Below are positions 16,440-22,474 of a stretch of DNA of 64,000 nucleotides, piece after piece (the stretch's first letter is position 1; each line of letters starts with the position of its first letter). This DNA comes from Naegleria gruberi (Eukaryota): the NCBI GenBank assembly GCA_000004985.1, contig GG738884.1; one strand, 5' to 3'. The position numbers were made by a program, and so were the translations under genes. The notes under the pieces were generated by a model. That model had not been told where the DNA came from, did no database searches, and worked only from the letters and a program-made list of their open reading frames with translations.

Positions 16440-18494
16440 ATGGGACAAAACCATTCAGGTGGATCAAATTCTGTGGGTGGAATGGGAGGAACACTAGTTG
16501 GAGATCAATACAAACCACCAGATCGTACCACAAACAATCTAGCTTCCTCCTTTCATACCAAAGAATCCATCAAAATTCAACAGCAGCAACAACAACAACC
16601 CGATTCAAATACAAACAACAATAATACATCGTCAGGTAATCTTGTTCTGATAGCAGCATCCAACACTTCCGATGCCTTGCTCATGTCCATCGCAGAGTTA
16701 GTCATTGTTCTCCAACAATTGGGTGAGATTCATCTCGTTGTCTTGCTGGAGGAAATTTCTCGTCACTACTACGAGATTCAAATTGGAGGCAATTTTTCTT
16801 CTCTGGAAGCAATTGCTGCTGCTAACAATAACACACAAGGAAATGGCGCCACTTCTCCAACACAAAATTTACAGGGTGGTGGCCCTCTCGCCAGTACATC
16901 ATTTAAAAATGGCGCCACTGGAAATTATGGCAACTCGAATGTAGATAATGGTCTGAAGAAGTACATTAATTGTGCCAAGTATACTCCCACTTGGTTGGAA
17001 GATGAGGGTGTATTTGGAGGTGGTGGTGGTATCGGAAGTGGATCGATTGGTAGAGGGAGTAGAATTAGTATTGGAGCAACATCAGGAAATAATGGCATGG
17101 ATGAAGATGATATGGAGGAGGATTATGGTGTAAATTATAATACGGATTCTGCTTTTCAGGTCTGGTTGATTGCATTGAAGGATAGACAATTACCGAGATT
17201 TAAGAGAAAATTGGAAAAGTTATTTGTGGATAATAGTGGAGGAGCAAGGAAGGTTGCCTTCTCTTTCAATGTACAAATGTCAACCTCATCGACAAATAGT
17301 TTGAGAAGAGCTTCTTCATTCCTACACGCACAAACTAATCCAAAAACTAATTATGTCATTGATATGGATAGTAAGCAGAAATATTTTGAGGTGAGGTCAG
17401 AGATGGAAATTATTCTCACTCATACTCTTGAGGAAATTAAAGATTTGAAAGAATGTTTGGATGCAAAGAGAAAAATCGAAGGAGGAACATCAAGTACCAG
17501 TGGAGCTGATGTTGCCGATGTTTCGGTTCTCCTTCAAGATTTTGATTTTGAATGTAGTTGGTGGGAGAAGAAGATTGGCTCCTCCAATTTCAGTGTCAAG
17601 AAGAAGGCATTTATTGATGCCATTGAAGAAACTTTTGCTCACTTGAAAGTCAAGTTTGAAATTGAGGTTTTGGAAGAGATTTCAGATCCAACTTGTGATG
17701 GAGTTGTAAGTGTGACAGATTTGAAAACTCTCACTAGATGGTTGGGCAGTATTTACAAGTGGAATACTGACGAATTGAAATTGAGAAATATTGCTGGAAA
17801 AGAAGATGCTGCACCAGTTATTTTCCTTCCTCATTTTTGGGGTTCAGTGACATGTTACGATGCACAAGATATTTTACAAAAGGAAGAACCTGGAACGTAC
17901 ATTATTCGTTTCAATGAGAACGAGCCTGGGCATTACTACATTTCATGTGTTCAGGAAAATGTTGTGGAAAATGAGGAGACTAGCTCAAATACTGGATTTT
18001 TTGCCACTCGTCAAGTGTATCACTTTGTATTGAAGAGAGGAAAAACTGAGAAGGGAGAACCTTACTATTACTTGTCCGATGCTGATAAGAGTCACAAATT
18101 CAAGACCATTACTGAGCTACTTGATAAGAATTACTTTTTGACATTCAAATATCCATATGTCAATGACGATCTCAAGTCTGCATTTGTTTCAAAGAAGAGA
18201 GATGTCGATGTCTTTGGTGCATTGAAGAGTTTATCAGGAGAGGGTGATGATTTGAATCCTTATCCATTTGTTGTATATAAGGGAAAGTTCAATGTTAATG
18301 AAAAGAAGAAGGAATCAGACATGAAAAAGATTGCCAATTTAGCTAAAAAGACTACTGAGCCGTCATTGGGCAATCCAGTCAATAATAATTCATCCTCAAG
18401 CATTAAAGATCAAGAACCAGGTATGGTACGAGTGGATTCCCTCAATTTACCACTGAGTAATAGCAAGGAAGAAACTTTAGATTTATCTGAATAA
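16440..18494 (+). CDS. SH2-domain-containing protein with a Q/N-rich N-terminus (possibly STAT-like), 684 aa
   Basis: FWGSVTCYDAQDILQKEEPGTYIIRFNENEPGHYYISCVQ fits the SH2 fold (W.G.i.r..a...L.....G.fl.R.S......y.is). N-terminus has poly-Q and N runs. ATG verified. Confidence 0.7.
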   Translation: MGQNHSGGSNSVGGMGGTLVGDQYKPPDRTTNNLASSFHTKESIKIQQQQQQQPDSNTNNNNTSSGNLVLIAASNTSDALLMSIAELVIVLQQLGEIHLVVLLEEISRHYYEIQIGGNFSSLEAIAAANNNTQGNGATSPTQNLQGGGPLASTSFKNGATGNYGNSNVDNGLKKYINCAKYTPTWLEDEGVFGGGGGIGSGSIGRGSRISIGATSGNNGMDEDDMEEDYGVNYNTDSAFQVWLIALKDRQLPRFKRKLEKLFVDNSGGARKVAFSFNVQMSTSSTNSLRRASSFLHAQTNPKTNYVIDMDSKQKYFEVRSEMEIILTHTLEEIKDLKECLDAKRKIEGGTSSTSGADVADVSVLLQDFDFECSWWEKKIGSSNFSVKKKAFIDAIEETFAHLKVKFEIEVLEEISDPTCDGVVSVTDLKTLTRWLGSIYKWNTDELKLRNIAGKEDAAPVIFLPHFWGSVTCYDAQDILQKEEPGTYIIRFNENEPGHYYISCVQENVVENEETSSNTGFFATRQVYHFVLKRGKTEKGEPYYYLSDADKSHKFKTITELLDKNYFLTFKYPYVNDDLKSAFVSKKRDVDVFGALKSLSGEGDDLNPYPFVVYKGKFNVNEKKKESDMKKIANLAKKTTEPSLGNPVNNNSSSSIKDQEPGMVRVDSLNLPLSNSKEETLDLSE

Positions 18495-18674
18495 ATACTT
18501 CAGAAGATTCAATGTAAATAGATTAAGTATATTCAATTAAACAGAAAAGTTTGAAACTGGTATGACTCTTGCATTCTTACATAAGAATGTATACCCTGTT
18601 TTGGAGTGTCAAGACAATATGATATTCATTGTTAGCTATGGTTACTGGCAATAAAAATATGTGAAGCCAAAAGC

Positions 18675-18761
18675 TCCGATGAGACGGAATCGAACCGCCG
18701 ACCACAGGATTACAGTTTTTCTTGCTACAGTCCCATGCTCTACCAGCTGAGCTATCATCGG
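18675..18761 (-). tRNA. tRNA-Tyr (anticodon GTA) with a ~13-14 nt intron
   Basis: Reverse complement reads CCGATGATAGCTCAGCTGGTAGAGCATGGGACTGTAG[caagaaaaactgt]AATCCTGTGGTCGGCGGTTCGATTCCGTCTCATCGGA. Exon sequence closely resembles eukaryotic tRNA-Tyr with the intron immediately 3' of the anticodon loop; acceptor stem pairs. Confidence 0.8.
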
Positions 18762-18875
18762 TTACATATGTAAAGAAAAGTTTTATGTTCATCATGTACT
18801 GAGTTCCAAGTCCAATTAAGGGACTTGGGTGAAAACATTGCTCACAATCGTGTAGTTCAGAGTATAAATGTGAAA

Positions 18876-18946
18876 TCGGGTGTGGTATAGTGGTAGCATT
18901 CCAGACTGTCACTCTGGCGACCCGGGTTCAATTCCCGGCACTCGAG
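18876..18946 (+). tRNA. tRNA-Asp (anticodon GTC)
   Basis: TCGGGTGTGGTATAGTGGTAGCATTCCAGACTGTCACTCTGGCGACCCGGGTTCAATTCCCGGCACTCGAG. Cloverleaf with 7-bp acceptor stem (one G-U), anticodon loop CTGTCAC, T-loop TTCAATT. Confidence 0.8.
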
Positions 18947-19225
18947 TAATAATTTTATGTTTATTCAATTCTTCGATATTTTTGCTTTTCAATATTTTGT
19001 GATCTGATAGTCCACATCCTTATCTTGATTATTCATTTTTTATTTTTTAATAATTATTCTTATTTCCTTTTTTAGAAGCCTCGTCCTGACCACTATTTTT
19101 TTCAAATGAGTTAACAAGCTCTCTAAACTCAAAATCATCATGTTCTATAGAGGAAACGTATCTCTCCCATCCAATGTATGGTAAAATTTGAATAATAATA
19201 ACAATTCTGAACTTTTCAAAAAAAA

Positions 19226-20315
19226 ATGAAATTTCTTGAACTTCCTCCTGAAATCGCTTGCATTATTCGTTGCTTTCTCATACGGGAAAATAATTCATCA
19301 TCAATATCGGAATGTAAATTCAAATTTTCACATATTTCTACCAATCAACACGAGGAAATTATTTCATTCTATATGAAATTGGAAACTGAATGGTTTAAAT
19401 TAAAAAATGATCATATTTGGGTCGATTTATTGGAATATGAAGCTAAAAATTGTAATTTATCTGATTTGCAATTGAGCAAGTGGAAGAAACAATTTAAAAA
19501 GAATATCAATTTTAGAAGGAAAGTATTATTAGTGAGATGGGCAAGAGCTCAATATATTACAAATATTTTGGAAAAAGACCTGCCAATGAATGGTGTGAAA
19601 GAGAGTTTGGTCTCCTTATTGGGAATAAGTATGTATTATAATGTCGTTTCATATAATTTCTAAATTTCAATTCGATTGTGTGTGAAATTCTAATATATAG
19701 GTGGAGTTGGTAAAACATCAATTTGTAATTACTTTGCAATGGGCCATTTCTATGAAGATTATTCGTGTGGAATTGAGGACACTACACGAAAAATGATAAA
19801 TCCAAGCTTTGGTGGAGGTTGGTGATTCGTATGGAGATTACGAATTCTCAGCCATGCTGGAACACACTCTGAAAAGGTATCATTCATCAATTTATGTATT
19901 TTCCACATCTCATTCCCTAGATGAACAAGTTGTGACTTCTACACGAAAGTTGTTTAATTCATTGCTGAGAGCGAGAGATAGGGAGTGGAATGATTTCCCA
20001 GTTCTGTTTGCAATTAACAAAGTTGATATTCCAGATCAGAAAAGAAGGAGCTCCATTGAAAATATTCAATCATTCATTGGAACAATTATTGAGGAATTTG
20101 ATTTGAGAAATACAGCAATATTCGAAACAAGTGCAAGAGAAGGAATTAATATCAATGAAATATTCGAACATGTTGTGCTGAAAATGGAATATTATGAACA
20201 GTTTCCATTCCTCCCTGCCTTGGAAGATGTACTTGTTAACGATATTGAAGCCCTCAAAAACTTGGAATTATGGAATATAACAAGAAGAAAACAAAGAAAG
20301 TGTCTTGTTTGTTGA
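19226..20315 (+). CDS. F-box-like N-terminal region fused to a Ras-like small GTPase. One intron at ~19629..19700; the frame is broken at ~19800-19825 (apparent 1-nt indel, pseudogene or draft error).
   Basis: Exon 1 begins MKFLELPPEIACIIRCFL (F-box-like) and ends ...MNGVKESLVSLLGI before a GTATGT donor. After the AG at 19699-19700 the frame continues S-GVGKTSICNYFAMGHFYEDYSCGIEDTTRK (P-loop plus switch I). The frame then hits TGA at ~19823, while the overlapping +1 frame continues ALVEVGDSYGDYEFSAM...FAINKVDI...ETSAREGININEIFE (DxxG, NKxD, ETSA motifs). Confidence 0.5.
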
Positions 20316-20754
20316 AAAGTGGTAGGAGGATAAGCATTAGTTGGAGTCATGATGCTTTGTAATGACTATCATCCAATTTCACCATTTCGAAATCAAGTAA
20401 ATAATAATATTAATTTGCACAACAATAATTTTTATTAATTGTTGTGGTGCAAAACAGGAGAGAAGTGATGCAACAAAACTATAAACACCACAACCCTTTT
20501 TCGTTCAACCTAAGTGACTTCATGTTCGGAAGCGACAAACTTGCTATTTACAAAATAATAACAATAACAAGCTTGGCACTTTCAAAGTATTCCAAAATCT
20601 TTTCGCATAGAATCTTTGAGACATGAGGTAGGAGTGCTGTTCTAAAATTTAGAAACGAGCACATCCTGGCGGAAATCACCTCAGTCGAAGATGGAGAGAA
20701 GAACCAACACAATTACACCACACTCTCCTCTTTGCTTTTTAGAGATGAGGGCGT

Positions 20755-21033
20755 TTAGACCTTGGTTGGTGCTCTCTTCAATGCCTTCTTTTCAGCAATC
20801 AAAGCAGCATGCTCCTTCTTTTGAGCAACAACTTGTTGTTGTTTATCAATGCTGTTCAACTTCATCTTCATTGGATCTTGACCAGTCTTCAAGGATTCAT
20901 ATCTACAATTGCAGAGGTATCTCTTCTTGGCTCTACCAGTCTTTTCCTTTTCAGTGTTCTTTTGTGGGTCGACCTTTGGAGTTTGGTTCTTAACTTTACC
21001 AGCACGTGCGAGGGATCCGTGAACTTTTGCCAT
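20755..21033 (-). CDS. RPS30: 40S ribosomal protein eS30 with a ~30-aa C-terminal extension, 92 aa
   Basis: [45 protein letters not shown] matches the eS30 core ([17 protein letters not shown]......GRAKkR..YnrR). The reading frame continues through ...[31 protein letters not shown] to the stop, with no GT donor at the expected end. Confidence 0.8.
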
Positions 21034-21298
21034 TTTGTGTCAATATATTGTTTCTGTTTTTTTTTTGTTTTATTTTTAAAATAATTTTTTATTGGTTGGG
21101 TTATTTATTTTACAATGACCGGTTCAATTTTGAGTTTTATCTTACCTTCAGCCAAAATCAAATCTGTACTTGCTTTTCTTTTAATTTACAATAGAAAATT
21201 TATTACACAACTAGGTATGCCAATTGTAGTCACCACAACGTTATTAACTGTGAAAAGGTAATTATTTATTCAAATATTATCATGTAAAATAACTACTC

Positions 21299-22474
21299 TT
21301 AGTCTTGGTCTGCATAGACAATTGGTTCACTTCTTGCAAATGAATGGTCATATCTGGTCAAATCAATATTATCCTCAGCCTCACCGAGTCCTGTAATTCC
21401 CTTTAGAATGGTATTCAACTCTATTACTTTCCATTCCAATGCATCTTCTGTTGATCCATTGACAAGTCCCAAATCTAATGTGAAATTATCAAATGGAACG
21501 TGCTTGGTAATGAGAGAGCACATCTTTCTAATTGGTTCCATCATGTTATCATTATATTTAATATAATTCTTTCCTGTGACAAAGGACCATCCTTCATTTC
21601 CTTCATCAATAACATAGTGCAACATTTGATCGATAATGATACATCTCATTTCTTTGAGAATGTTAACTTTTGGTCGAGCAATGTATAATTCTTCATACAG
21701 ATTCAAATCTCTCATTCTCTCAAAGAAGAGATTGCAACGAGTTGATCTTTGAATGTGATCCATCAATTCATTCCAACCATTTCTGGTGGTTTCGTACAAA
21801 CATTCTGCAGAAACATCTTTAGGGGAGCAACCATCACATCTCACAAAGACTGAATCAAGATGATGAACTGATTTCAATTCGAGGAATTCCTCCTCTTCCC
21901 TAATAATATGAATTGGAGATATTAACAATTGATTAACAGCTTGCTCAGATCCAAACGATTTCTTCAATGTTTCAAACCATTGTGAAAGATCGAAACTTCT
22001 CTGAATTTTAGCCAACACAGCAGTCATTGACTTTCTCATAACAAAAACAACATTATCATCGTGAAATAGATCATCTTCCTCGGAGGCTTTCTTAGAATGT
22101 TTGATAATAAACTTGTCCATCTCCTTACTCTCATCTTGCTCCAATCTAAATTTTCTAAGATTTTGCAAATCATCAAGATGAATCATTCTACAAGTAGATT
22201 CTTCATCACCATTATTGGATTCCTCTGCTTCTTCATCACCATTTAGAGGCTCATCAAGAAAATGATCCATAAAGATTCTCCTAGAGATTAAACTCCATTC
22301 ATGATTGAATTGTTGAAGATTATTCTCTTCCGAGGAAATAGCTTGCACATTATCCAAATGCGACATTCTACCCAAATCATTCGGATAGGCCCACTTGAGA
22401 GAATACATTTGTTTAATACTCTCCTGAAGATTATTATTCGGCAAGGGACGAAACTCTAACTTGGCAACGAACAT
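21299..22474 (-). CDS. CDC123: CDC123 / D123-family protein (cell-division-cycle 123-like), 391 aa
   Basis: Blocks SLKWAYPNDL (cf. KLNWSAPRDA), the acidic stretch DEEAEESNNGDEE, FVRCDGCSPKD (cf. FIHCTDDSPDP), RNGWNEL (cf. RKWCEL) and C-terminal FDNFTLDLGLVNG...EWKVIELN (cf. VWLIDFNPFG...TWEEL) follow the D123 family order. Recalled from memory, not from a search. ATG verified. Confidence 0.5.
   Translation of the reverse strand: MFVAKLEFRPLPNNNLQESIKQMYSLKWAYPNDLGRMSHLDNVQAISSEENNLQQFNHEWSLISRRIFMDHFLDEPLNGDEEAEESNNGDEESTCRMIHLDDLQNLRKFRLEQDESKEMDKFIIKHSKKASEEDDLFHDDNVVFVMRKSMTAVLAKIQRSFDLSQWFETLKKSFGSEQAVNQLLISPIHIIREEEEFLELKSVHHLDSVFVRCDGCSPKDVSAECLYETTRNGWNELMDHIQRSTRCNLFFERMRDLNLYEELYIARPKVNILKEMRCIIIDQMLHYVIDEGNEGWSFVTGKNYIKYNDNMMEPIRKMCSLITKHVPFDNFTLDLGLVNGSTEDALEWKVIELNTILKGITGLGEAEDNIDLTRYDHSFARSEPIVYADQD

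What the first reader, a model, noticed from the sequence alone, without database searches (positions are those of the whole stretch)
19226..20315. F-box-like N-terminus fused in frame to a Ras-like GTPase, interrupted by a frameshift
The same reading frame that starts with an F-box-like motif (MKFLELPPEIACIIRCFL) runs without a stop into a textbook small-GTPase start (MNGVKESLVSLLGI|S-GVGKTSI...) across a 72-nt GTATGT...TATAG intron, followed by a switch I IEDTTRK. The frame then terminates at ~19823, and the G3/G4/G5 motifs (DSYG, NKVD, ETSA) continue in the +1 frame. The putative catalytic Gln of DTAGQ is replaced (DSYGD). This is either an unusual F-box::GTPase architecture carrying a 1-nt assembly error, or a decaying pseudogene of such a fusion.
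Basis: partly seen in the sequence, partly recalled or inferred. Interest (0 to 1): 0.55.

Follow-up and report, generated by a model that had tools for sequence, protein, structure and literature searches.

The report
Broken Naegleria Ras gene with F-box-like head
This is a known Naegleria gruberi gene (XP_002674418.1) from a family of odd Ras-like GTPases with an F-box-like N-terminal extension; this copy is broken by two lost bases and was already listed as a likely pseudogene, so it is mostly ordinary.

Summary
One ORF starts at 19226 (MKFLELPPEI...). It runs into a GTPase P-loop split by a 72-nt GTATGT..TATAG intron (19629-19700) and hits TGA at 19823-25. G3, G4, G5 and a polybasic CaaX tail continue in the next frame to 20315.

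The window is Naegleria gruberi NEG-M (Heterolobosea), not an amoebozoan. The locus is XP_002674418.1. Its database model hides the frameshift with a spurious 103-nt intron that removes beta3 and switch II. Herman et al. 2021 (Table S8) already list it as a Ras-family putative pseudogene.

A roughly 96-98% identical, syntenic metagenome contig has an intact frame. Against it, the window lacks two separate A's (after 19802 and after 19807). dN/dS between the two copies is about 0.9.

The N-terminal extension is not an orphan. At least 10 N. gruberi Ras paralogs share it, the closest at 50% identity. Its first helix (LPxEIL..ILSF) matches an F-box profile (hhalign 81%; 0 of 200 shuffles reach the score). 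No family member reaches a Pfam F-box cutoff, and AlphaFold models were uninformative.

[quoted passage not shown] Verdict: a probably recent pseudogene, or less likely a sequence error, of a lineage-specific F-box-like Ras paralog. Low to moderate interest.

The parts
19226..19628 (+). Exon 1. It holds the start codon, the ~120-aa N-terminal extension, GTPase strand beta1 (SLVSLLGI) and the first base of the P-loop Ser codon.
   Evidence: Open frame. Identical to residues 1-134 of XP_002674418.1. 52% identical to the N-terminal extension of paralog XP_002680941.1*.
19235..19279 (+). F-box-like helix-1 motif, LELPPEIACIIRCFL (family consensus F..LP.EIL..ILSF).
   Evidence: hhalign of the family profile against a Pfam-validated F-box set gives Prob 81% and E 1.2e-5 over 20 columns. 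0 of 200 column shuffles reach the score. No Pfam F-box hit for this protein.
19629..19700 (+). Intron 1: 72 nt, GTATGT...TATAG, phase 1, inside the P-loop.
   Evidence: Removing it restores GISGVGKT. The NCBI model uses the same splice. The 65 nt covered by contig L001 are identical.
19701..19797 (+). Exon 2, the part still in frame: P-loop GVGKT (19703-17), helix alpha1 and switch I IEDTTRK (19772-92).
   Evidence: Translation. Aligns to R-Ras residues 12-45.
19798..19812 (+). Frameshift site AAATCCAAGCTTTGG. One A is missing after 19802 and one after 19807, relative to the intact homologue (AAATCACAAGCATTTGG, reading N-H-K-H-L).
   Evidence: DNA alignment with L001. Inserting the two A's gives an ORF identical in length to L001's. 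Paralog XP_002680941.1* has the same segment length as L001.
19823..19825 (+). Premature TGA in the frame set by the start codon.
19809..20315 (+). Rest of the GTPase coding sequence in the shifted frame: beta3 LVEVGD, G3 DSYG (19824-35), G4 NKVD (20016-27), G5 ETSA (20124-35), C-terminal extension, polybasic RRKQRK (20283-300), CaaX CLVC (20301-12) and stop (20313-15).
   Evidence: ORF list and motif coordinates. Pfam Ras covers positions 4-160 of 162 on the repaired protein. PDB best hits are R-Ras at 65 bits and Rap1b at 52 bits.
19818..19920 (+). The 103-nt 'intron' (GTTGGT...CCCTAG) used by database model XP_002674418.1 to bridge the frameshift. It is almost certainly an annotation artefact.
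   Evidence: P0001 reads ...RKMINPSFGG|DEQVV.... The skipped stretch encodes beta3, G3, switch II and beta4, aligns residue for residue to R-Ras, and is a continuous ORF in L001.

Best explanation
The locus is gene XP_002674418.1 of Naegleria gruberi NEG-M. It belongs to a Naegleria-specific, expanded clade of divergent Ras-family GTPases built from three parts:
1. A ~110-120-aa N-terminal extension. It opens with an F-box-like LPxEIL helix, followed by a variable insert, an NFQS/FW segment and an RRK-LL helix.
2. A Ras-type G domain.
3. A C-terminal extension ending in a polybasic stretch and a CaaX box.

In this genome copy the coding sequence is broken once. Two single A's have been lost 5 nt apart (net -2), which gives a premature TGA 11-25 nt downstream. 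The most likely status is a recently inactivated copy: a unitary pseudogene or a null allele of a birth-and-death family.

How the intact form would work is inferred, not shown. The protein would be prenylated and held on a membrane by the CaaX box and the basic patch. It would bind guanine nucleotide, because the P-loop Lys/Thr, DxxG, NKxD and SAK-type motifs are present. It would hydrolyse GTP poorly, because Gly12 is Ser, Thr35 is Gly and Gln61 is Asp. The N-terminal F-box-like helix would couple it to Skp1/SCF. The protein would then be either a GTPase-shaped substrate receptor or a protein whose own turnover is SCF-controlled.
For: Identity:
- A 100%-coverage match to 'ras family small GTPase [Naegleria gruberi]' P0001 = XP_002674418.1/EFC41674.1.

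Family:
- Alignments A3 and A4 with 10 curated N. gruberi Ras paralogs show 50-52% identity to XP_002680941.1*. The N-terminal motifs, G domain, C-terminal extension and CaaX are conserved.
- In an independent strain, paralog ORFs P0004 and P0005 run uninterrupted from the extension into the P-loop.

Ras class:
- Pfam Ras scores 46-49 bits. R-Ras and Rap1 are the best solved relatives.

Lesion:
- The syntenic contig L001 is 96% identical by mean column identity and has the same eS30 neighbour. It carries an intact frame and differs at the site only by two extra A's.
- The paralog has L001's segment length, so the window state is derived.

Relaxed constraint:
- dN/dS is 0.90 (7 nonsynonymous, 2 synonymous). 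CDS divergence is 1.79%, against 0% in eS30 and 1.65-4.2% in flanking non-coding DNA.

Prior curation:
- Table S8 of PMC8296547 marks XP_002674418.1 as 'putative pseudogene: yes'.
- The same paper describes disrupted members and birth-and-death dynamics in the F-box-bearing Rab-like clades.

F-box-like head:
- hhalign gives 81% over helix 1. With the insert excised, the best of 200 tried cuts gives 93% over 41 columns. 0 of 200 shuffles reach the helix-1 score.
- Sub-threshold F-box-type Pfam hits occur in 4 of 9 family N-termini.
Against: - No reads or transcripts could be examined, so a sequencing or assembly error cannot be excluded. There is only one lesion in an otherwise clean 1-kb gene.
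- The dN/dS estimate rests on 9 substitutions. It cannot be polarised, and it would also fit a fast-evolving functional gene.
- No member of the family reaches a Pfam F-box gathering score. The best is 17.5 bits against 21.6, and the window protein has no F-box hit even at E<=10.
- The family profile finds no F-box protein among PDB sequences.
- Two AlphaFold runs gave pLDDT of 49-51.
- Skp1 binding and nucleotide binding are untested.
Confidence: 0.6

Rival explanations
1. The gene is intact in the organism, and the two missing A's are errors in the published NEG-M assembly or a low-quality consensus. The locus would then encode a functional F-box-like Ras paralog of about 339 aa.
For: There is a single lesion in an otherwise fully open, well-conserved gene. 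No other stop or frameshift occurs in 1017 coding nt. A 96-98% identical strain is intact. All nucleotide-binding motifs are still present.
Against: The two lost bases are at separate, non-homopolymer positions (C[A]C and C[A]T), which is an unusual error pattern. Curators who re-inspected the Ras superfamily gene models kept the locus as a putative pseudogene. Near-neutral divergence fits relaxed constraint.
Confidence: 0.28
2. The database model is right. A real 103-nt intron (19818-19920) is spliced out, giving a 304-aa protein that lacks beta3, G3 and switch II.
For: GT...AG boundaries exist and the splice restores the frame. It is the deposited model.
Against: The 'intron' encodes, in frame with the downstream exon, the segment LVEVGDSYGDYEFSAMLEHTLKRYHSSIYVFSTSHSL. 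That segment aligns column for column with R-Ras beta3, DTAGQ, switch II and beta4, and it is present as exon in L001 and in all paralogs. The donor is GTTGGT, unlike the GTATGT of intron 1. A G domain without beta3 and switch II cannot fold as a GTPase (established structural knowledge of the Ras fold).
Confidence: 0.04
3. There are two separate units. The GTPase starts at the internal Met (MNGVKE, 19586), and the upstream 120 codons are a 5' leader, an upstream ORF or a separate small gene. On this reading there is no fusion.
For: MNGVKESLVSLLGISGVGKT looks like a textbook small-GTPase N-terminus. No transcript data are available.
Against: There is no stop between the two parts. The open frame has P of about 7e-4 by chance. 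The same extension sits in the same position in at least 10 paralogs, with conserved motifs right up to the G domain. In P0004 and P0005 it is one uninterrupted ORF with the P-loop. The closest paralog has no Met at the equivalent position (IQERYMVLVGEGGVGKT).
Confidence: 0.04
4. Programmed +1 ribosomal frameshifting at or before the TGA restores the downstream frame.
For: A +1 shift is the geometry needed.
Against: Any shift near the stop would translate PSFGGGW in place of the conserved beta3 strand HKHLVEVG seen in L001, or TMIELL in the paralog. The close relative needs no shift. No evidence for a recoding signal was seen or sought.
Confidence: 0.01

Closest known systems
Naegleria F-box-GTPase fusions (Herman et al. 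2021, BMC Biol, PMC8296547, Supplementary Material 4 and Table S8; for example the RabX13 clade)
   Same: Same genus. Both have an N-terminal extension upstream of a small-GTPase domain that begins with an LPxE(I/L) F-box helix. Both are lineage-specific expansions, with a CaaX tail in one subgroup and several members with disrupted coding sequence (birth-and-death). This very accession is listed there as a Ras putative pseudogene.
   Different: [quoted passage not shown] The Ras entries, including this one and its paralogs, have no extra domain recorded. Here the F-box signal is sub-threshold and seems interrupted by an insert after helix 1.
XP_002680941.1* (N. gruberi Ras paralog, curated model in Table S8)
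   Same: 50% identity over the full length. It shares the start (M-x-x-L-x-LP-x-E), WxxLLEYEAKNCN, RR-VLL-RWA-QY, NDFPVLFAINK-DIP, FIGTII-EF-L-NTAIFETSA and QRK-C-L-C.
   Different: The paralog is intact, whereas the window copy is frameshifted. The paralog has lost DxxG (KLYT), whereas the window copy keeps it (DSYG). The paralog's N-terminus gets a sub-threshold PF13013 F-box-like_2 hit (17.5 bits) and the window protein does not.
TbFRP (Tb927.7.3790), the FYVE-F-box-GTPase of Euglenozoa (PMC3593210)
   Same: An F-box lies N-terminal to a small-GTPase domain in one polypeptide, in another Discoba lineage.
   Different: TbFRP has a FYVE domain and a Rab18-like G domain. This protein has no FYVE hit and a Ras/Rap-like G domain. 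The TbFRP authors found no Naegleria orthologue. The two are most likely independent fusions.
Rab40 (SOCS box) and RhoBTB (BTB domains): small GTPases carrying a cullin-adaptor module
   Same: Conceptually the same design, a Ras-superfamily G domain fused to a module that recruits a cullin-RING ligase. Herman et al. note RhoBTB in Naegleria and BTB and F-box domains as ubiquitin-ligase components. The comparison with Rab40 rests on my own knowledge.
   Different: The adaptor type differs (SOCS with Cul5, BTB with Cul3, against a putative F-box with Skp1-Cul1). The position differs too: C-terminal in Rab40 and RhoBTB, N-terminal here.
R-Ras / Rap1 (PDB 2fn4, 7s0z, 3brw)
   Same: These are the best solved relatives of the G domain (65 and 52 bits). 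They share the effector-loop core IED, NKxD, SAK and a C-terminal CaaX.
   Different: Gly12 is Ser, Thr35 is Gly, Ala59 is Tyr and Gln61 is Asp. The beta2-beta3 hairpin is 3 residues shorter. There is a 120-aa N-terminal extension and a ~40-aa C-terminal extension.

Membership tests
Ras-family small GTPase (Pfam PF00071) | Pfam Ras score above the gathering threshold | tested here: met
   46.2-49.5 bits against a cutoff of 21.6, covering profile positions 4-160 of 162, on the frame-repaired protein.
Ras-family small GTPase (Pfam PF00071) | G1 P-loop GxxxxGK[ST] | tested here: met
   GISGVGKT, restored by removing the 72-nt intron. Position 12 is Ser, not Gly.
Ras-family small GTPase (Pfam PF00071) | G2 switch I threonine (Thr35 of H-Ras) | tested here: not met
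   SCGIEDTTRK aligns to DPTIEDSYTK of R-Ras, and the Thr position is Gly. Canonical family members keep DPTIED.
Ras-family small GTPase (Pfam PF00071) | G3 DxxG and catalytic Gln61 | tested here: inconclusive
   DxxG is present (DSYG, 19824-35), but only in the shifted frame. The Gln61 position is Asp.
Ras-family small GTPase (Pfam PF00071) | G4 NKxD and G5 SAK | tested here: met
   NKVD at 20016-27 and ETSAR at 20124-38.
Ras-family small GTPase (Pfam PF00071) | Uninterrupted coding sequence | tested here: not met
   The frame is broken at 19798-19812 and a TGA follows at 19823-25.
F-box domain (PF00646 / PF12937 / PF13013) | Score above a Pfam F-box gathering threshold | tested here: not met
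   The window protein has no F-box hit even at E<=10. The best in the family is 17.5 bits against 21.6 (PF13013, closest paralog); three others have E of 0.05-0.11. Control F-boxes, including three from Naegleria Rab proteins, score 28-77 bits.
F-box domain (PF00646 / PF12937 / PF13013) | Helix-1 LPxE(I/L)xxxI(L/F) motif | tested here: met
   LELPPEIACIIRCFL. The family consensus is F..LP.EIL..ILSF. hhalign gives Prob 81% and E 1.2e-5, and 0 of 200 shuffles reach the score (30.6 against a maximum of 15.1).
F-box domain (PF00646 / PF12937 / PF13013) | Helices 2-3 (the hydrophobic/VCKxW...LW half), giving the full ~45-residue three-helix domain | tested here: inconclusive
   The alignment extends to 41 columns (Prob 93%, score 37.5) only after the variable insert is cut out, and the cut was chosen from 200 tried. 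AlphaFold models have pLDDT of 49-51. The family profile finds no F-box protein in PDB sequences.
F-box domain (PF00646 / PF12937 / PF13013) | Binding to Skp1 | not testable with these tools
   Needs pull-down or yeast two-hybrid with Naegleria Skp1.
Naegleria-specific Ras paralog clade with N-terminal extension (Ras list of Table S8, PMC8296547) | Alignable N-terminal extension, Ras G domain, C-terminal extension and CaaX | tested here: met
   Alignments A3 and A4. Nearly invariant F64, W65, R98 and L101, and CaaX in 8 of 11. The accession is listed in Table S8.
TbFRP (FYVE-F-box-GTPase) | N-terminal FYVE domain and a Rab18-like G domain | tested here: not met
   No FYVE hit. The G domain is closest to R-Ras/Rap. 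The TbFRP authors report no Naegleria orthologue.
Unitary pseudogene | Disabling lesion absent from a close orthologue, neutral evolution and no expression | tested here: inconclusive
   The lesion is present and is absent in L001. dN/dS is 0.90 but rests on only 9 changes. Read support and expression could not be tested.

The most novel reading that the evidence does not exclude
The ~110-aa extension shared by this gene and at least 10 N. gruberi Ras paralogs may be a genuine Skp1-binding F-box that carries an insertion after helix 1. That would extend Naegleria's F-box-GTPase fusions to the Ras family proper. It would define a set of prenylated, membrane-anchored, hydrolysis-impaired Ras-like modules acting as SCF substrate receptors (or self-degrading switches). 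On this reading the NEG-M copy is either intact, if the lesion is a sequence error, or a very recent loss.
Probability: 0.35. Interest if true: 0.45.

Novelty: new member of a known kind. Interest (0 to 1): 0.25.

Why it matters
- **Annotation.** The deposited model XP_002674418.1 is wrong. It splices out beta3, G3 and switch II to hide a frameshift. It should be replaced by a pseudogene annotation or a corrected 339-aa product.
- **Biology.** The one addition to the published picture is that the unrecorded N-terminal extension of a whole clade of Naegleria Ras paralogs starts with a statistically supported F-box helix. If it binds Skp1, GTPase-linked ubiquitination in Naegleria would also cover Ras-type proteins.
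- **Population data.** The intact and broken copies in two near-identical strains give a small, datable example of the birth-and-death turnover proposed for these families.

None of this overturns current understanding.

Tried and rejected
- **phmmer of the N-terminal 134 aa against 1.84 billion representatives.** The only hit was a bacterial KDTLVNFAR-repeat protein (P0003), which is spurious. The protein's own entry was not recovered.
- **phmmer and profile search of the N-terminus against PDB sequences.** There were no F-box proteins. The best hits were IBP39, CapV and ApoA-I at E of 0.45-0.9, all rejected.
- **AlphaFold2 of the window N-terminus and of paralog P0005 with 3-sequence alignments.** pLDDT was 51 and 49, helical but unreliable. 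No fold search was run, because it would be meaningless at that confidence.
- **MAFFT of P0001, P0002 and the window ORF.** It mis-aligned because of the model's deletion and was not used.
- **tblastn of both domains against the window.** No paralog lies within the 64 kb.
- **JGI metagenome scan.** No relatives were found.
- **Exact look-ups of the SH2 neighbour and of P0001.** Neither is on record.
- **Literature search by accession.** No papers.
- **Profile search with the N-terminal alignment.** It returned only two ENA paralog fragments and missed P0001 itself, so the absence of N. fowleri hits is not evidence of absence.
- **Considered and rejected:** a short 42-nt intron to bridge the shift (it would delete switch I), +1 programmed frameshifting, and orthology with TbFRP.
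Full report
**1. What is in the sequence**

Reading 18600-21000 and listing ORFs, then translating with and without the proposed intron, confirms every element of the observation.

- An ATG at 19226 opens a frame that reads MKFLELPPEIACIIRCFL... and stays open for 134 codons.
- At 19629 a GTATGT donor begins a 72-nt intron that ends TATAG at 19700.
- Removing the intron joins ...SLVSLLGI-S-GVGKTSICNYF..., which makes a P-loop (GISGVGKT). The switch I core IEDTTRK follows at 19772-92.
- This frame ends at TGA 19823-25.
- One base downstream, a frame with no stop from 19803 (listed ORF 19809-20315) encodes LVEVGDSYGDYEFSAML (G3 DSYG at 19824-35), NKVD (20016-27), ETSA (20124-35), a ~40-residue tail, RRKQRK and CLVC. 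Its stop is at 20313-15.

The arrangement is unlikely to be chance. With the window's stop-trinucleotide frequency (5.9%), a 120-codon open stretch in frame directly upstream of a GTPase start has P of about 7e-4. The frame-repaired protein scores 46-49 bits on Pfam Ras, against a cutoff of 21.6, across the whole model.

**2. Whose gene it is**

A search with the repaired protein returned P0001, 'ras family small GTPase [Naegleria gruberi]'.

P0001 is identical to the window translation through RKMINPSFGG and then jumps to DEQVV.... The deposited model therefore uses the same first intron. It also invents a second one (19818-19920, 103 nt, GTTGGT...CCCTAG) to get past the frameshift.

That 'intron' encodes beta3, G3, switch II and beta4. 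The segment aligns column for column with R-Ras. The model is an annotation artefact.

**3. The lesion**

The second hit, P0002, comes from a 1768-nt ENA metagenome contig (L001). It shows 96% mean column identity with the window, and 98.2% in the GTPase coding sequence downstream of the lesion. L001 is syntenic, with the same eS30 gene downstream. It begins inside intron 1, so it says nothing about the N-terminal extension.

Its GTPase ORF is intact and reads ...RKMINHKHLVEVGDSYG.... At the site, the window's AAATCCAAGCTTTGG differs from L001's AAATCACAAGCATTTGG by exactly two missing A's and no substitutions.

Paralog XP_002680941.1* has the same number of residues between RK and EH as L001. 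The intact state is therefore ancestral and the window state is derived.

Elsewhere in the coding sequence the two copies differ at 9 of 503 sites. There are 7 nonsynonymous and 2 synonymous changes, giving dN/dS of 0.90. For comparison:

| Region | Divergence, window vs L001 |
|---|---|
| GTPase CDS downstream of the site | 1.79% |
| Adjacent eS30 CDS | 0% |
| Flanking non-coding DNA | 1.65-4.2% |

This fits relaxed constraint. With so few changes it also fits a fast-evolving functional gene.

**4. Prior knowledge**

Herman et al. 2021 (PMC8296547) re-curated all Ras-superfamily genes of N. gruberi and N. fowleri. Their Table S8 lists 'Ras, XP_002674418.1, putative pseudogene: yes' with no additional domain.

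Their supplementary text makes three relevant statements:
- Three divergent Rab-like clades carry a conserved N-terminal extension, identifiable as an F-box in some members. One of these clades has a CaaX motif.
- Several members are disrupted, which suggests birth-and-death evolution.

Ras plus F-box is not mentioned. Another Discoba example is TbFRP (FYVE-F-box-Rab18-like GTPase). Its authors found no Naegleria orthologue.

**5. The N-terminal extension is a family feature**

Table S8 gives curated sequences of other N. gruberi 'Ras' genes. Aligning ten of them with the repaired window protein shows one common architecture:
- a start F..LP.EIL..ILSF.V;
- a variable insert of 0-30 residues;
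- I..V.NFQSL...FN.FWWNL;
- a helix ending LKRKVLL.R;
- the G domain;
- a conserved C-terminal segment (LK.V...D), basic residues and CaaX.

The closest paralog, XP_002680941.1*, is 50% identical overall. The ORFs P0004 and P0005, from the metagenome strain, run uninterrupted from the extension into the P-loop. This argues against the idea that the upstream ORF is a separate unit.

The family also shows that loss of Gln61 is general. Members have DTAGP, DLAGP or wholly degenerate G3 motifs. It is not decay specific to this copy. The window protein additionally has Gly12 replaced by Ser and Thr35 replaced by Gly.

**6. Is the extension an F-box?**

By the standard test, no.
- The window protein has no F-box hit even at E<=10.
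- Among nine family N-termini the best is PF13013 at 17.5 bits (cutoff 21.6, closest paralog). Three more have PF12937 or PF00646 hits at E of 0.05-0.11.
- Nine control F-boxes, including three from Naegleria Rab proteins, scored 28-77 bits.

Profile-profile comparison of the family alignment with those nine controls gives a different picture.
- hhalign reports Prob 81% and E 1.2e-5, but over only 20 columns, which is helix 1.
- None of 200 column-shuffled versions came near. The maximum shuffled score was 15.1, against 30.6 for the real alignment.
- Cutting out the variable insert extends the match to 41 columns (Prob 93%, score 37.5). That cut was the best of 200 tried, so the gain is only suggestive.

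Other tests gave nothing:
- The family profile finds no F-box protein among PDB sequences.
- phmmer of the extension against 1.84 billion representatives finds nothing real.
- Two AlphaFold runs were unreliable, with pLDDT of 51 and 49.

My reading is that this is probably a divergent F-box with an insertion after helix 1, with probability roughly 0.35-0.5. Membership is not demonstrated.

**7. Mechanism**

Shown:
- a Ras/Rap-like G domain with intact P-loop Lys/Thr, DxxG, NKxD and SAK-type motifs;
- substitutions at residues 12, 35, 59 and 61;
- a polybasic-CaaX tail;
- an N-terminal LPxEI helix.

Inferred, using established knowledge of Ras biochemistry and of SCF ligases:
- The intact protein would be prenylated and membrane-bound.
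- It would bind nucleotide but hydrolyse it poorly.
- It would use the N-terminal helix to engage Skp1-Cul1, either as a substrate receptor or to control its own turnover. This parallels Rab40-SOCS and RhoBTB.

In NEG-M the copy in this window cannot make that protein unless the two missing bases are an assembly error.

**8. Verdict**

The locus is already catalogued as a putative pseudogene, and the architecture is a known Naegleria theme.

The small additions from this work are:
- the exact lesion, two single-base losses, with an intact relative for comparison;
- the demonstration that the database model's second intron is spurious;
- statistical support for an F-box-like helix at the head of a whole Ras paralog clade for which no extra domain had been recorded.

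**9. Caveats**

The word-indexed protein search behaved erratically. One search did not return P0001, although its N-terminus was the first row of the query. The lack of hits from other Naegleria species therefore carries little weight. No reads or transcripts were available, so a real mutation and a sequence error cannot be told apart.

Noticed in passing
window 18675-18761 (-): An 87-nt tRNA gene, apparently intron-containing; by eye the anticodon region reads GTA, suggesting tRNA-Tyr. Rfam RF00005 finds it at 54.8 bits, but ARAGORN missed it. It sits back to back with tRNA-Asp(GTC) at 18876-18946 (+), about 280 nt upstream of the GTPase start codon.
   Followed up: partly
window 19818-19920 (database model XP_002674418.1): The deposited NCBI/JGI gene model contains a spurious 103-nt intron that deletes beta3, G3 and switch II to keep the frame. 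The record should be corrected or marked as a pseudogene.
   Followed up: yes
window 16440-18494 (+): A 684-aa single-exon ORF with a Pfam SH2 domain (32 bits, residues 466-561) and Gln/Asn/Gly-rich low-complexity regions. It may be a STAT-like signalling protein. The exact product is not on record in the contig look-up.
   Followed up: partly
window 20755-21033 (-) and L001 1146-1424: The ribosomal protein eS30 gene (Pfam Ribosomal_S30, 77.8 bits) is 100% identical between the window and the metagenome strain over 279 nt. It served as a handy internal control for purifying selection next to the near-neutral GTPase gene.
   Followed up: yes
window 20316-20754 and 21034-21298 versus L001: There are several strain-specific indels in the intergenic DNA: about 30 nt present only in L001 just after the GTPase stop, a 6-nt deletion, and a 21-nt stretch present only in the window upstream of eS30. 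This shows the two sources are distinct strains rather than copies of one assembly.
   Followed up: no
window 21299-22474 (-): A 391-aa ORF with no Pfam family at E<=0.001. Its last ~100 nt are identical in L001. Function unknown.
   Followed up: no
(tool behaviour): The word-indexed protein search missed obvious N. gruberi paralogs. In one search it even missed P0001 itself, although its N-terminus was in the query alignment. The 50%-cluster representative library also did not return the protein's own entry. Negative results from these searches should not be read as absence.
   Followed up: no
paralog family (alignment A3): Most members of this Ras paralog clade have degenerate G3 motifs (KLYT, DTIE, EMKG, DTDA, EEPS), and none of the aligned members has the Ras-type DTAGQ. 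Many may be pseudo-GTPases that no longer cycle. The window gene is one of the few that keeps DxxG.
   Followed up: partly
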